Positions 1-5,633 of a stretch of DNA of 13,684 nucleotides are shown here, piece by piece. The notes under the pieces are model-generated. The model had not been told where the DNA came from. It was given only the letters and a program-made list of their open reading frames with translations, and did not search any database. The stretch's first letter is position 1; each line of letters starts with the position of its first letter. The translations under genes and the position numbers were made by a program. Source of the stretch: a virus (taxonomy: Duplodnaviria > Heunggongvirae > Uroviricota > Caudoviricetes). The stretch is from the IMG/VR virus record IMGVR_UViG_2563366959_000001, positions 1 to 13,684 of that record; one strand, 5' to 3'.

Positions 1-311
1 ACTGTACTGCGGCGCGCCAGCTGTTTAATGCGCGGATCCGGAGCATCGTATGAATCCGGCAGCGGAAGCCCTTCACCGTAAGCCATGGCATTGGACTGCC
101 CGGCCAGTACGATGACGTAGTACCAATCCGGCTCAGTTGCACCACTGACCACCACATCACCTTCTGCTGTAATCGCCTGCATCAGGGTATAAGGGGTTAT
201 GGCCACCGGACTACCAAACGGCTGCCAGCCCTCTTTCAGTTTGTGTGTCAGCTTTTCCGCAAGGTCTGACGGCGACGCCGCCCTGACAACATCATAATGT
301 TTAAATGTCAT
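1..311 (-). CDS. Late-region esterase, 5' part only (DUF1737-like N-terminus followed by SGNH/sialate O-acetylesterase-like domain; NanS-p-like); gene continues beyond window start
   Basis: ATG at 309-311 (minus) preceded by GGAGG (316-320) with 4-nt spacing; translation MTFKHYDVVRAASPSDLAEKLTHKLKEGWQPFGSPVAITPYTL...VLAGQSNAMAYGEGLPLP with the GQSN block typical of SGNH hydrolases; open to position 1. Confidence 0.6.
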   Translation of the reverse strand, partial: MTFKHYDVVRAASPSDLAEKLTHKLKEGWQPFGSPVAITPYTLMQAITAEGDVVVSGATEPDWYYVIVLAGQSNAMAYGEGLPLPDSYDAPDPRIKQLARRST

Positions 312-354
312 TATTCCTCCCGGCCGGGATAGTGTATTAAATCAGATATGGAGT

Positions 355-399
355 GGGCTGTAGTCCGGAAGCCTGAATGACACACGGGGACTACAGCCC
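355..399. other. Perfect 12-bp inverted repeat GGGCTGTAGTCC / GGACTACAGCCC with 21-nt loop (potential RNA stem-loop)
   Basis: Direct reading: arms at 355-366 and 388-399 are exact reverse complements. Confidence 0.5.
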
Positions 400-423
400 A
401 AGAAATGAAAAAAGGCCACGCAG

Positions 424-453
424 TTGCGCAGCCTGATAAACCCTGGTTAAAAT
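424..453 (+). promoter_or_regulatory. Candidate sigma70 promoter (TTGCGC - 18 nt - TAAAAT) facing the 496-520 terminator
   Basis: Hexamers read from sequence; no experimental support; would give a ~60-nt transcript ending at the plus-strand terminator. Confidence 0.25.
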
Positions 454-495
454 CCACACGATAACAACACAACAATATCAGTATCTCATGCTATT

Positions 496-520
496 GCCCG
501 AACCCATTCGGGCATTTTTT
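496..520 (+). terminator. Rho-independent terminator (GCCCGAA-CCCA-TTCGGGC followed by A + T6)
   Basis: 7-bp GC-rich stem, 4-nt loop, six T run at 515-520. Confidence 0.55.
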
Positions 521-521
521 A

Positions 522-553
522 CCCATAAAAAATGCCCCTCCGGAGAGGGGCAT
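522..553 (-). terminator. Rho-independent terminator for minus-strand transcripts (9-bp stem ATGCCCCTC/GAGGGGCAT, loop, then T6 on minus strand)
   Basis: Stem 532-540/545-553; plus-strand A-run 527-532 gives the U-tract on the minus strand; back-to-back with the 496-520 terminator. Confidence 0.55.
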
Positions 554-718
554 GTTTGCATGCACATTCTTTTTCTTGCATGGTGCCGGGTGCCTCCCGG
601 TGAATTCAGTATCAGCACCTGAATCCGCGATTATCACATATACCTGGTTGCTGATTGCCCCTCCGCACAGGGGGATTCACCATGCAGTAGTATTTTTAAT
701 AAACAGTAAACAAAAAAA

Positions 719-838
719 TCAAGCATTATGCAGGCTGTTTCTTTTTATCACCGGCCACAGCAATACCACAATGCCGCAGACCAGAGCGCCATCAGTCAGT
801 ACCAACATTATCCTGCTGGTGAAATCCATCATCACCAT
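719..838 (-). CDS. Candidate small hydrophobic single-TM peptide (39 aa from ATG: MVMMDFTSRIMLVLTDGALVCGIVVLLWPVIKRNSLHNA); alternative upstream GTG/TTG starts possible
   Basis: Hand translation of minus strand; open frame between TGA stops; no convincing SD; overlaps an antisense plus-strand ORF (552-881) so coding status is uncertain. Confidence 0.3.
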   Translation of the reverse strand: MVMMDFTSRIMLVLTDGALVCGIVVLLWPVIKRNSLHNA

Positions 839-971
839 CACTAAAAGCAGGATCACAACAGCAAGCAGACACAGTTTATAAAACAATGTTCAGAAAACGC
901 ATTCAGCATGCCTAAGGTTCTATTCCTACGAATAGCCAACTTGCAACTTAAAATATTATTTATGCAGCCAA

Positions 972-1730
972 TTAAATTCTGGTCCTTACAATATCAACCT
1001 GAAGATTCTTATCTTGTGCTGATTGATAAATCACAAACCTTTTACTACCTGCATTGAAAGAAGTAGACAAAACCAGACAATTATCATAACGAGCAAGAAC
1101 ATAATACCAACCATCATTATAATTAATCATTTCATATTCTTTCTTAAACTGTGGTTTGTAATATCCTGTCAGAAATGAAAAAAGCCAGAAATATGCCACA
1201 AAAGCAATCATCACAATCTCAAAAAAATGTTTTTTTATAAATGGCTTATCATAGAAGCATGATACCGATAAAAATCGCCCATAAGATCTTATCGAAATTG
1301 TAACCGCCAGCGCAATCGCTGCTGACAGTAGCAAAAGAGGTACCTGAATCTTCTGTCTCAATATAGAAAACTCAATAATTGCCGGCACAAACAATAATTC
1401 CACAGCAAAATAAAGGCGAAATACATTTAGCTCTTGCATAGAATGTTTTCTTTTCACTGCGAAAAAGAATACAACACCAATACCCCAACCGATAAGAAAT
1501 ATAGCAATGACGATAACTGCAAAAAATAAACTTCTGGCAACATCATCAACACCTGCACCTACAATCCACCATGGGAAGCCGTAGTAAAAAGAAGTACCCC
1601 ATCCATAGAAATAAGCACTCCCCCATCCAAGGCATCCCATGTAGGCAATAAAAAGTGAAGAACTCCTGAGCAGCGCACCATCCTTCATAACCACCCCAAT
1701 ACAAGATGATAACATTGGCTTACAACTCAT
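972..1730 (-). CDS. Polytopic membrane protein of unknown function (252 aa; aromatic-rich N-terminal segment, ~4-5 predicted TM helices, ~55-aa soluble C-terminal tail); AT-rich moron between Q/PR' and the late esterase gene
   Basis: Long ORF in an otherwise non-coding-looking, visibly AT-rich block; hydrophobic stretches LFFAVIVIAIFLIGWGIGVVFFFAV, FRLYFAVELLFVPAIIEFSIL, VPLLLLSAAIALAVTISI, FFEIVMIAFVAYFWLFSFLTGYY; candidate promoter TTGACG (1750-1755) - 17 nt - TTATGA overlapping the first ATG; true start may be Met6 (1715). Confidence 0.7.
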   Translation of the reverse strand: MSCKPMLSSCIGVVMKDGALLRSSSLFIAYMGCLGWGSAYFYGWGTSFYYGFPWWIVGAGVDDVARSLFFAVIVIAIFLIGWGIGVVFFFAVKRKHSMQELNVFRLYFAVELLFVPAIIEFSILRQKIQVPLLLLSAAIALAVTISIRSYGRFLSVSCFYDKPFIKKHFFEIVMIAFVAYFWLFSFLTGYYKPQFKKEYEMINYNDGWYYVLARYDNCLVLSTSFNAGSKRFVIYQSAQDKNLQVDIVRTRI

Positions 1731-1879
1731 AACAAAAGCAATTCAATGCCGTCAAGAGGTTACAGGCTAAAAAAACTCTATTACATTGCAGTCAGCATGT
1801 TTACTACACAAATACAATTCAGAGCATAAAAACTACTCGGCGGCAGGTTATTGAGACTCATCAATGACATGTAAAAAAC

Positions 1880-1925
1880 GCCCATTATTGGTGTCAAGTT
1901 TCCCCAAAGTTATTCAAAAAGTCAA
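1880..1925 (-). promoter_or_regulatory. PR'/qut-like late promoter region downstream of Q (minus strand TTGACT-TTTTGAATAACTTTGGGG-AAACTT-GACACCAATAATGGGCG)
   Basis: Position immediately after Q and close resemblance, from memory, to lambda PR' (TTGACT TATTGAATAAAATTGGG TAAATT TGACTCAACGAT); -10-like pause element AATAAT in the initial transcribed region. Confidence 0.5.
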
Positions 1926-1967
1926 TATTATGCCGTTAATATGTTGCCATCCGTGGCAATCATGGCG

Positions 1968-2591
1968 CTAACGTGTGATCGCATTCAAAATGTTGTCTGC
2001 GATTGACTCTTCCTTGTGGCATTGCACAACCAGAGCGTCATACAGCGGCTTAACAGTGCGTGACCAGGTGGGTTGGGTAAGGTTTGGGATTAGCATCGTC
2101 ACAGCGCGATATGCGGCGCTTGCTGGCATTCTTGAATAACCGACGCCTTTACATCTTCCGCACTCTTTCTCAGCAACTATCCCCCACTGCTCTGTTTTGG
2201 CTATATCAACCGCACGGCCTGTACCGTGGCAATCTCTGCATCTTGCGCCCGGCGTAGCGGCACTACGGCAATAATCCGCATAAGCGAATGTTGCGAGCAC
2301 TTGCAGTACCTTTGCCTTAGTATTTCCTTCAAGCTTTGCCACGCCACGGTATTTCCCCGATACCTTGTGTGCAAATTGCATCAGATAGTTGATAGCCTTT
2401 TGTTTGTCGTTCTGGCTTAGTTCATGCTTACCGCAGAATGCAGCCATTCCGAATCCGGCTTGTGATTGCGCCATCCCCATAGCAGCCATCACATCAGTAC
2501 CGGAAAGAGAGTCAGAAGCCGTGGCCCGTGGTGAGTCGCTCATCATCGGGCTTTTTGGCGAATGAAATTTAGCTACGCTTTCGAGTCTCAT
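1968..2591 (-). CDS. Q: Late-gene antitermination protein Q (lambda-type)
   Basis: 207-aa translation [44 protein letters not shown]... matches lambda Q as recalled, including Cys-rich zinc-binding region; ATGA-type overlap with upstream gene. Confidence 0.95.
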
Positions 2592-3253
2592 GCGCCTTCT
2601 CCCTGTACCTGAATCAATGTGAGGTTTCCGCAGAACACTGCGCCGGTATCTATATACATCTGGTTGGCAAACTTGAGTGGTTTCACTGCTGGCGTATGAC
2701 CAAAGATGAACGTGTCCGCGCCTTTGATTTCTTTCACGATCCCGTCTTGTGAGTTGCTGATTCGTTCGCGGTTCCAGATTACCTGCTGATGATCAACTGG
2801 CTTTCCAAACTCGTATTTATCACAAGGATAATCGGCGTGGCAGATGACATATTTTTTTCCTTTACTCACCAGTTCGATGATTAACGGAAGTTCATCTGCT
2901 TTATGGGCAAGAGCTTTAGCCAGAATTTCTTTGTCGTAATCGAGATTAAAGAACCAGCCACCGCCATTAAGCAGCCAGTGATTGACGTTTCCACGCTCTG
3001 ATAAGCCATCAATCATCATTTGCTCATGGTTTCCACGTACAGCTCTGAACCAGGGGAATGTGATTAATTCCAGGCATTCTACGTTCTCTGTACCGCGATC
3101 AACCAAATCGCCCACCGAGATAAGCAGGTCTTTTTTGGTGTCGAATCCTATCGTCTCCAGTTTTTTCATCAGGTTCGTGTAGCATCCGTGCAGATCGCCA
3201 ACTACCCAAATATTTCGGTATTTGCTGCCATCAATTCTTTCGTAGATATTCAT
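2588..3253 (-). CDS. ninI: Ser/Thr protein phosphatase (lambda phosphatase, NinI/orf221 family; calcineurin-like metallophosphoesterase)
   Basis: 221 aa; motifs GDLHG, GDLVDRG, GNHE characteristic of PPP-family phosphatases; stop overlaps Q start. Confidence 0.95.
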
Positions 3254-5356: not shown

Positions 5357-5513
5357 AACGATAACTCCGTACATTTGGACATTATCGCCACCGTCAGGTG
5401 CTAATCATCATGGTGGCGAACTGTGCGGGGTTAGCACTACCGGGTACGGAAACCGGCGAGCCTTTCGGCTCCCCCACACAGCCCGCCATAAATCGCGAAT
5501 GTGACTGTGCAAA

Positions 5514-5548
5514 CGATATGAAAAAAGACGCGGGCGCGTCTCATATCG
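5514..5548 (-). terminator. Rho-independent terminator in the nin region (inner hairpin GACGCG-NN-CGCGTC followed by T6 on minus strand, nested in a longer inverted repeat CGATATGA...TCATATCG)
   Basis: Read directly; on minus strand GACGCGCCCGCGTC is followed by TTTTTTCATATCG. Confidence 0.5.
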
Positions 5549-5633
5549 CTCCGTAAACATCCGGGGTGCTAATCCCGACGCCAGATTTTGCTGGCGCGTG
5601 AGGAATATAGCCCCGAATAAATCATCGCGTCAA

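What the first reader, a model, noticed from the sequence alone, without database searches (positions are those of the whole stretch)
355..553. Hairpin-dense intergenic region with back-to-back terminators and a possible ~60-nt small RNA
Between the moron and the esterase gene lie (i) a perfect 12-bp-stem hairpin (355-399), (ii) a sigma70-like promoter TTGCGC-N18-TAAAAT (424-453) pointing at a canonical plus-strand terminator (496-520), which would delimit a ~60-nt plus-strand transcript, and (iii) an oppositely oriented terminator (522-553) that closes the moron transcription unit. Late transcripts from PR' would need Q-mediated antitermination to read through to the esterase and lysis genes, so this is a point where moron expression and late-gene expression are separated. 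The small transcript is hypothetical.
Basis: seen in the sequence. Interest (0 to 1): 0.4.

Follow-up and report, generated by a model that had tools for sequence, protein, structure and literature searches.

The report
Known prophage anti-sRNA AgvB locus
The "possible ~60-nt small RNA" is real and already known: it is AgvB, a prophage-encoded RNA of E. coli O157:H7 that soaks up the host regulatory RNA GcvB, and it sits tail-to-tail with a second known small RNA (EcOnc06, STnc100 family).

Summary
The window is the Sp17-type lambdoid prophage of E. coli O157:H7 and matches strain Sakai exactly across 176-1151.

- **459-520 (+) is AgvB.** It scores 96.5 bits against Rfam RF02702 (cut-off 56), with 62/62 positions equal to the consensus. 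Tree et al. 2014 showed that AgvB is a 60-nt Hfq-dependent "anti-sRNA" that sponges GcvB.
- **The opposing terminator (553-526, -) ends a second known sRNA.** This is EcOnc06, of the STnc100 family (711-521, -; 144.7 bits against RF02076). It is not simply the end of the moron unit.
- **The arrangement is published.** Convergent sRNA dyads between the moron and the esterase/lysis genes are described for at least eight Sakai prophages.

Two elements are not described in the papers I read:
- A second late-strand terminator at 434-407 (-), whose loop holds the AgvB -35 on the other strand.
- The 354-400 hairpin. Covariation and G·U asymmetry across 28 variants place it on the late (minus) strand, in the esterase 5' leader. 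It has no U-tract, so it is not a terminator.

Interest is low to moderate.

The parts
459..520 (+). AgvB anti-sRNA (the AgvB2/EcOnc01b copy of prophage Sp17), 62 nt including the U-tail
   Evidence: Rfam RF02702 at 96.5 bits (gathering 56), model 1-62/62, every position equal to the consensus. Identical to Sakai Sp17. Reported as 60 nt by Northern, Hfq-dependent, with a 5' RLM-RACE start site (PMC4104026).
424..453 (+). AgvB promoter: -35 TTGCGC (424-429), 18-nt spacer, -10 TAAAAT (448-453). The RNA 5' end lies 6 nt downstream.
   Evidence: Sequence read. The -35 and the 18-nt spacing are kept in all 49 distinct slot variants, although the spacer, the -10 (TAAAAT or TATTAT) and the RNA differ. 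Those variants were selected with TTGCGC, so conservation of the -35 itself is partly by construction.
460..479 (+). AgvB seed: a CA-rich mimic of GcvB targets, containing the R1 target consensus CACAACA at 468-474
   Evidence: RNAduplex pairs AgvB nt 2-21 with GcvB nt 66-85 (UGUGAUGUUGUGUUGUUGUG) at -19.4 kcal/mol. 17/1000 composition-matched shuffles do as well. The GcvB sequence used matches E. coli genomes at 100%. The consensus is named in PMC4104026.
495..520 (+). AgvB intrinsic terminator (8-bp stem 495-514, U6 at 515-520)
521..711 (-). STnc100-family sRNA, which is EcOnc06 of Sp17, convergent with AgvB. Its 5' end is not fixed here.
   Evidence: Rfam RF02076 at 144.7 bits (gathering 47), model 1-206. 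The EcOnc06 Northern probe matches 609-643 with 1 mismatch. Reported as ~177 nt. The review states that AgvB forms a dyad with EcOnc06 (PMC7873438).
526..553 (-). EcOnc06/STnc100 intrinsic terminator (9-bp stem 553-532, T-run 531-526)
   Evidence: -17.9 kcal/mol, z -3.2. It shares a perfect 12-nt inverted repeat with the AgvB terminator tail (510-521/526-537).
407..434 (-). Second late-strand intrinsic terminator ('Term2'): 9-bp stem 434-413, T6 412-407. Its loop and 5' arm carry the AgvB -35 on the opposite strand.
   Evidence: Across 28 variants 85% of stem cells pair on the late strand against 68% on the opposite strand. Present in 272 phage records, almost all without annotation under the match.
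354..400 (-). Conserved RNA hairpin in the late transcript, 43 nt upstream of the esterase start codon. It has no U-tract, so it is not a terminator.
   Evidence: 13 perfect bp. 14 aligned pairs, 88% of cells paired, 6 pairs with changes on both sides, 0/500 shuffles reach the observed score. 46 G·U cells against 7 A·C cells. Divergent types fold at about -22 to -25 and -30 kcal/mol on the late strand, against -7 to -14 and -21 on the opposite strand.
309..331 (-). Esterase translation start: SD GGGAGGA (321-315) and ATG (311-309). The SD lies partly inside the palindrome TCCCGGCCGGGA (329-318).
1..311 (-). 5' part of the DUF1737/SASA sialate O-acetylesterase gene (nanS-p type), first gene downstream on the late strand
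   Evidence: PF08410 at 7e-17. Annotated as yjhS, SASA esterase or DUF6645 in relatives.
719..886 (-). DUF3927 small-protein gene. Its stop codon lies 8 nt upstream of the STnc100 model start.
   Evidence: PF13064 at 1.4e-13; RefSeq annotation.
972..1730 (-). Moron: a predicted membrane protein with no Pfam family (Sakai ECs_3500)
1968..2591 (-). Late antiterminator Q. It fixes the minus strand as the late-transcription strand.
   Evidence: PF03589 at 1.2e-57.

Best explanation
Bases 354-711 are the convergent sRNA dyad that lambdoid prophages of EHEC carry between the moron slot and the esterase/lysis genes. This is the Sp17 version.

Shown in strain Sakai, for sequence identical to the window:
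- On the plus strand a sigma-70 promoter (TTGCGC-N18-TAAAAT) makes the 60-62-nt Hfq-binding RNA AgvB.
- AgvB's CA-rich 5' end imitates an mRNA target of the core sRNA GcvB. It pairs with the GcvB R1 seed and relieves GcvB repression of targets such as dppA.
- On the minus (late) strand the STnc100-family sRNA EcOnc06 ends at a terminator whose tail abuts the AgvB terminator.

Inferred here:
- A second late-strand terminator (434-407) backs up the EcOnc06 terminator. In the lysogen, transcription from the morons or from EcOnc06 then stops before the esterase, holin and lysis genes.
- Only Q-modified polymerase from PR' reads through both terminators.
- Because the AgvB -35 lies inside that second terminator, and read-through RNA is fully antisense to AgvB, late transcription should shut AgvB off.
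- The 354-400 hairpin is an RNA structure of the read-through late transcript, in the esterase 5' leader. It most likely acts as a stabilising or processing stem. Its function is not shown.
For: Identity of the two sRNAs:
- AgvB scores 96.5 bits and STnc100 144.7 bits, both full length and well above their gathering scores.
- Window 1-3073 aligns to Sakai Sp17 at 99.7% with no gaps, and there is no mismatch in 176-1151.
- Tree et al. 2014 (PMC4104026) list EcOnc01a/b (AgvB1/2) in Sp10 and Sp17 as 60 nt and Hfq-destabilised, with mapped primary 5' ends. They report the GcvB R1 consensus CACAACA, compensatory-mutation tests and a growth advantage in bovine rectal mucus. [quoted passage not shown]
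- The EcOnc06 probe maps to 609-643.
- The review PMC7873438 names the AgvB/EcOnc06 dyad.

Seed pairing was recomputed: -19.4 kcal/mol with GcvB nt 66-85.

Context: Q, DUF3927 and the DUF1737 esterase all lie on the minus strand.

Term2 and the hairpin. The fixed -35 position and 18-nt spacing across different sRNA cargoes are shown.
Against: - No expression data exist for this exact isolate. The functional claims are carried over from Sakai on sequence identity.
- The insulation role of the two late-strand terminators, the shut-off of AgvB by late transcription and the role of the hairpin are inferences.
- Some esterase-linked prophages lack Term2, the hairpin or both (types D and E; the iraM-bearing locus). 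Neither element is therefore essential for esterase or lysis expression.
- Most type B hairpins carry one or two uncompensated mismatches in mid-stem. Pairs 49-87 and 50-86 are unpaired in 19 and 12 of 28 rows.
- The T-run of Term2 could equally serve as an UP-like A-tract for the AgvB promoter.
Confidence: 0.9

Rival explanations
1. The region is only a cluster of transcription terminators that insulates the moron from the late genes. No independent functional small RNAs are made.
For: Three good terminators lie within 150 bp. RefSeq and GenBank annotate no RNA gene here.
Against: Both RNAs match curated Rfam families far above threshold. Both were detected by Hfq-CRAC and Northern for identical sequence, and AgvB has genetic and biochemical function.
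Confidence: 0.03
2. The 355-399 inverted repeat acts at the DNA level or on the plus strand, for example as a protein or recombination site or as the end of a plus-strand transcript. On this view it is not an RNA structure of the late transcript.
For: In the window and in type B relatives the stem is pure Watson-Crick, so it folds about equally on both strands. Conserved module junctions in mosaic phages can be recombination hot spots.
Against: Across 28 variants there are 46 G·U cells against 7 A·C cells, with 88% pairing on the late strand and 78% on the other. Types F and C fold about 8-17 kcal/mol better on the late strand. Six pairs show changes on both sides while the loop sequence and length are free. 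No T-run follows on either strand.
Confidence: 0.1
3. The 434-407 element is conserved only as AgvB promoter architecture (-35 plus an upstream A-tract acting as an UP-like element). It does not terminate late-strand transcription.
For: The invariant core GCGCAA is the -35 on the other strand. The A-tract lies at about -47 to -52 of that promoter. In types F and G the T-run is displaced from the stem.
Against: It has a canonical 9-bp G+C-rich stem, a 4-nt loop and T6 on the late strand. Stem changes keep late-strand pairing: G-C to G-U at three pairs, G-C to C-G at one, and 85% against 68% paired. Both roles can coexist.
Confidence: 0.15
4. The signals belong to protein-coding ORFs on the plus strand: 488-622 (44 aa) or 552-881 (109 aa, annotated in Sakai as ECs_3499).
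For: The ORFs exist, and one is annotated as a hypothetical protein in Sakai.
Against: There is no Pfam match. The ORFs lie antisense across EcOnc06 and the DUF3927 gene, and newer RefSeq annotation drops the call. The conservation pattern is that of RNA stems.
Confidence: 0.03

Closest known systems
AgvB (EcOnc01a/b; Rfam RF02702), anti-GcvB sponge sRNA of EHEC prophages Sp10 and Sp17
   Same: The sequence is identical (62/62 to the family consensus and identical to the Sakai Sp17 copy). It has the same promoter, terminator, CACAACA seed and position between the moron and the esterase.
   Different: Nothing at the sequence level. Expression in this isolate was not measured.
AsxR (EcOnc02; RF02703), anti-FnrS sRNA 3' of stx2B in Stx2 phages, together with EcOnc03
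   Same: It occupies the same slot with the same -35/spacing/-10 and the same ~42-nt 3' domain and terminator. The window scores 43 bits on the AsxR model over 470-518, and 933W carries AsxR at the homologous place.
   Different: The 5' seed of 14-22 nt differs, so the target is FnrS rather than GcvB. AsxR's 5' end pairs with GcvB at only -7.5 kcal/mol, against -19.4 for AgvB. The window stays below the AsxR gathering score of 63.
STnc100 / EcOnc27 (sRNA103) / EcOnc06 / PasD family (RF02076)
   Same: The minus-strand partner gives a full-length match with a conserved core and terminator. It takes the same convergent position in all eight relatives checked.
   Different: The window copy is a shorter variant (191 nt aligned against a 206-nt model, ~177 nt by Northern). 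Its function and 5' end are unknown.
SroC, the GcvB sponge derived from the gltIJKL mRNA (PMC4474525)
   Same: It works the same way, as an Hfq-associated RNA that base-pairs with GcvB and counteracts it.
   Different: SroC is core-genome encoded, processed from an mRNA and unrelated in sequence. That it triggers GcvB decay is from my own knowledge. AgvB was reported to block GcvB without clearly lowering its level.
Moron transcription units of lambdoid phages (own promoter plus terminator, Juhala et al. 2000, cited in PMC4104026)
   Same: Terminators bracket the accessory DNA downstream of PR', so that only Q-antiterminated polymerase reaches the lysis genes.
   Different: Here the terminators are the 3' ends of functional sRNAs. 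One terminator also houses a promoter for the opposite strand.

Membership tests
AgvB (RF02702) | Covariance-model score at or above the curated gathering score over the full model | tested here: met
   96.5 bits against 56; model 1-62/62; all positions equal to the consensus.
AgvB (RF02702) | 5' variable domain carrying the GcvB R1 target consensus CACAACA and able to pair with the GcvB R1 seed | tested here: met
   CACAACA at 468-474. The duplex with GcvB nt 66-85 is -19.4 kcal/mol, and 17/1000 shuffles do as well.
AgvB (RF02702) | Conserved ~42-nt 3' domain with a Rho-independent terminator and U-tail | tested here: met
   Two 3' stems and U6; terminator scan.
AgvB (RF02702) | Location in a lambdoid prophage downstream of Q/PR', between the moron and the esterase/lysis genes, convergent with an STnc100-type sRNA | tested here: met
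   described in PMC4104026 and PMC7873438.
AgvB (RF02702) | Expressed as a ~60-nt primary transcript, Hfq-dependent, and relieves GcvB repression | not testable with these tools
   Reported for the identical Sakai sequence. No expression data exist for this isolate.
STnc100 (RF02076) / EcOnc06 | Covariance-model score at or above gathering, full length, with a terminal intrinsic terminator | tested here: met
   144.7 bits against 47; model 1-206; terminator 553-526.
STnc100 (RF02076) / EcOnc06 | Identity with the RNA detected experimentally as EcOnc06 | tested here: met
   The published probe matches 609-643 with 1 mismatch and matches Sp10 perfectly. Published CRAC coordinates could not be mapped exactly because the genome version changed.
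AsxR (RF02703) | Score at or above the gathering score | tested here: not met
   43 bits against 63. Only the shared 3' domain matches.
Intrinsic (Rho-independent) terminator, for the 354-400 hairpin | G+C-rich stem directly followed by a U-tract | tested here: not met
   No T-run follows on either strand. It is therefore not filed as a terminator.
Intrinsic terminator, for 434-407 (-) | G+C-rich stem of at least 5 bp, short loop, at least 5 U within 8 nt | tested here: met
   9 bp, 6 G-C, 4-nt loop, T6. Actual termination was not measured.

The most novel reading that the evidence does not exclude
The dyad may act as a lysogeny/lysis toggle rather than a chance pile-up of terminators.

- The AgvB promoter is built into the loop of a late-strand terminator, and everything between the two late-strand terminators is antisense to AgvB.
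- Q-antiterminated late transcription would therefore occlude the AgvB promoter and make a perfect antisense to AgvB, silencing the host-reprogramming sponge once the phage commits to lysis.
- That read-through RNA carries a GcvB-R1-like GU-rich stretch.
- The conserved late-strand hairpin would then mark or protect the 5' end of the processed esterase-lysis mRNA.

Probability: 0.25. Interest if true: 0.45.

Novelty: already known. Interest (0 to 1): 0.25.

Why it matters
AgvB is a textbook case of a prophage rewiring host post-transcriptional control. It helps O157:H7 grow in bovine rectal mucus.

- **For the scan.** A tool-less reader correctly predicted a real 60-nt sRNA from promoter and terminator geometry. 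Genome annotation still omits it: 619 of 5426 complete E. coli genomes carry AgvB, with no feature annotated under the match in any listed record.
- **What is new.** The additions are modest. There is a second late-strand terminator that contains the AgvB -35. There is also a covarying late-strand hairpin in the esterase leader, present in 272 Stx-type phage records.
- **Why that could matter.** Together they give a testable rationale for why these sRNA dyads sit where they do.

Tried and rejected
- **Hairpin as terminator.** Rejected: no U-tract on either strand.
- **Hairpin or Term2 as a described sRNA (PasA/PasC).** The Pas preprint places PasA/PasC next to the holin, on the far side of the esterase, and PasD with STnc100. 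They are not this element. I did not obtain the Pas sequences, so this rests on position only.
- **Published EcOnc06 CRAC coordinates (3486349-3486411).** Taken at face value on NC_002695.2 they would fall antisense to AgvB (window 422-484). The AgvB1 coordinates show a shift of about 137-146 nt between genome versions. I therefore relied on the Northern probe, which maps to 609-643.
- **Weak Rfam hits below threshold.** These were GcvB 407-555 (-) at 20.7 bits, OmrA-B, Phe leader and others. I treat them as chance or as a by-product of the antisense seed.
- **Generic sigma-70 scan.** It does not report the AgvB promoter because the -35 matches only 3/6.
- **EcOnc06 promoter.** TTGATT-N18-TAAAAA (722-693, -) is a candidate, but the predicted length (~161 nt) does not fit the ~177-nt Northern band. 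The 5' end is left open.
- **Literature on the stx-nanS-p flank.** PMC10462455 says nothing about these RNA elements.
- **Protein and structure searches.** Not used: the finding is non-coding, and Pfam sufficed for the flanking genes.

Full report
**What is in the sequence**

The window is a lambdoid prophage read against the direction of late transcription.
- The Q antiterminator (PF03589, 2591-1968) is on the minus strand.
- So is a 252-aa membrane-protein moron (1730-972).
- So is a 55-aa DUF3927 gene (886-719).
- So is a DUF1737/SASA esterase that starts at 311.

- Hairpin: a perfect 12-bp stem at 355-366/388-399, extending to 13 bp at 354-400. It is the longest perfect short-range inverted repeat in the window. 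It folds far better than shuffles on either strand (z -4.6 and -6.1).
- Promoter and plus-strand terminator: TTGCGC-N18-TAAAAT at 424-453. The terminator has its stem at 495-514 and T6 at 515-520.
- Minus-strand terminator: stem 553-532, T-run 531-526.

Terminator-like sites are enriched. There are 7 in the first 3 kb, against 2.9 +/- 1.9 expected, and four of them fall in 413-563.

**Identity of the small RNA**

A scan of the window against Rfam gives two strong full-length matches inside the finding.
- AgvB (RF02702) at 459-520 (+): 96.5 bits against a gathering score of 56, with all 62 positions equal to the family consensus.
- STnc100 (RF02076) at 711-521 (-): 144.7 bits against 47.

Window 1-3073 aligns without gaps at 99.7% to prophage Sp17 of E. 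coli O157:H7 Sakai. There is no mismatch between 176 and 1151.

Tree et al. 2014 (PMC4104026) report the following.
- They found EcOnc01a/b in Sp10 and Sp17 as the most abundant unannotated Hfq-bound RNAs.
- They mapped primary 5' ends and measured 60 nt by Northern.
- They showed destabilisation in an hfq mutant and renamed the RNA AgvB.
- Its 5' domain carries the GcvB R1 target consensus CACAACA.
- It relieves GcvB repression of dppA, with compensatory-mutation support.
- It gives a competitive advantage in bovine terminal rectal mucus.

CACAACA is at window 468-474. I recomputed the pairing. AgvB nt 2-21 pair with GcvB nt 66-85 at -19.4 kcal/mol, and 17 of 1000 composition-matched shuffles do as well. 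The GcvB sequence used is 100% identical to E. coli genomes.

**The partner RNA**

The Northern probe published for EcOnc06 (Sp17, ~177 nt) matches window 609-643 with one mismatch, and matches the Sp10 copy perfectly. The STnc100 match is therefore EcOnc06. The "oppositely oriented terminator" is its 3' end.

The arrangement is described in print.
[quoted passage not shown] All eight relatives I fetched have STnc100 at the homologous place. 933W carries AsxR where this window carries AgvB.

Among 49 distinct versions of the slot, the -35 TTGCGC and the 18-nt spacer length are kept. The -10 (TAAAAT or TATTAT), the spacer sequence and the RNA cargo vary.

AgvB is present in 619 of 5426 complete E. 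coli genomes, with a median of 2 copies. None of the listed records has a feature annotated under the match.

**What the papers I read do not describe**

(a) Term2, at 434-407 (-). It is a canonical terminator on the late strand. Its loop and 5' arm are, on the other strand, the AgvB -35.

In an alignment of 28 distinct variants written in late-strand orientation (A1), stem changes keep late-strand pairing.
- G-C changes to G-U at three pairs, and to C-G at one.
- 85% of cells pair on the late strand, against 68% on the opposite strand.

(b) The hairpin, at 354-400 (-). The evidence for a conserved late-strand RNA structure is as follows.
- Across the same 28 variants, 14 aligned pairs are 88% paired.
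- Six pairs show changes on both sides.
- No shuffle out of 500 reaches the observed covariation score, and slid registers fall to 34-46% pairing.
- Loop length and sequence are free.
- There are 46 G·U cells and only 7 A·C cells.
- The divergent types fold much better on the late strand. Type F gives about -22 to -25 kcal/mol against -7 to -14, and type C gives -30.4 against -21.4.

The hairpin is thus an RNA structure of the late transcript, 43 nt upstream of the esterase ATG. It has no U-tract, so it is not a terminator.

There are caveats.
- Many type B copies carry one or two uncompensated mid-stem mismatches.
- The sequences are related, so the shuffle control overstates significance.
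- Some esterase-linked prophages lack the element altogether.

The Term2-hairpin unit occurs in 272 phage records, essentially all of them Stx-type lambdoid phages, and almost all listed records have no feature annotated under the match.

**Mechanism**

Shown, by identity with Sakai: AgvB and EcOnc06 are made as convergent Hfq-binding sRNAs, and AgvB sponges GcvB.

Inferred:
- In the lysogen, transcription entering from the morons or from EcOnc06 is stopped by two successive terminators before the esterase, holin and lysis genes.
- Q-modified polymerase from PR' reads through.
- The read-through RNA is fully antisense to AgvB and passes over its promoter. AgvB should therefore be a lysogeny-specific product.
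- The hairpin probably stabilises or marks a processing site of the esterase-lysis mRNA. It follows a U-rich single-stranded stretch and precedes a CUCC/SD region. This last point has the least support.

**Verdict**

- The minus-strand terminator belongs to a discrete sRNA.
- A second late-strand terminator was missed.
- The hairpin is a late-strand RNA element.

The core feature is already known and well characterised. The new details are incremental but give a testable rationale for the dyad architecture.

Noticed in passing
window 5409-5610 (-): Rfam gathering-level hits to C4 antisense RNA (5409-5493), isrK (5521-5597) and the c4 a1/b1 target (5558-5610). This is a P1/P7-type C4 antisense immunity module inside this lambdoid prophage.
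   Followed up: no
window 552-881 (+): This 109-aa ORF is annotated in Sakai as hypothetical protein ECs_3499. It lies antisense across EcOnc06/STnc100 and the DUF3927 gene, has no Pfam hit and is dropped in newer RefSeq annotation. It is probably a spurious gene call.
   Followed up: partly
window 318-329 and 350-353 (-): The esterase SD GGGAGGA is half buried in a perfect palindrome, TCCCGGCCGGGA. Type C relatives have UCCC-GGAAA-GGGGA instead, which keeps the pairing. A CUCC anti-SD-like tetramer directly follows the big hairpin in most types. Together these hint at translational control of the esterase.
   Followed up: partly
relatives L005-L008, L120, L140, L156 (the slot homologous to window 435-520): In many Stx2-type phages the same promoter slot carries a longer (~75-nt) sRNA-like cargo with a -10 of TATTAT and its own terminator (..GCTGAAATATTACTTCACGTTTTGTTGTTTATTCCTTGCCGCCCGCG..). 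It reaches no Rfam gathering score. Two further short alleles with new 5' seeds also occur.
   Followed up: partly
L226 (E. coli 1162C) 1089-1424: In this prophage the slot between the esterase and STnc100 holds iraM (an RpoS anti-adaptor) in the AgvB orientation. Term2, the hairpin and the anti-sRNA are absent.
   Followed up: partly
window 510-521 / 526-537: The tails of the AgvB and EcOnc06 terminators form a perfect 12-nt inverted repeat (GGGCATTTTTTA / TAAAAAATGCCC). The two 3' ends are only about 5 nt apart, and each U-tail is templated by the other's A-tract.
   Followed up: no
window 407-555 (-): A sub-threshold hit to the GcvB model (20.7 bits against 42). The antisense of the AgvB seed is GU-rich like GcvB R1 and is followed by Term2, so a read-through late-strand RNA would carry a GcvB-seed-like sequence.
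   Followed up: no
window 972-1730 (-): The 252-aa membrane-protein moron has no Pfam family. It is marked frameshifted in at least one otherwise identical O157:H7 genome, PV15-279.
   Followed up: no
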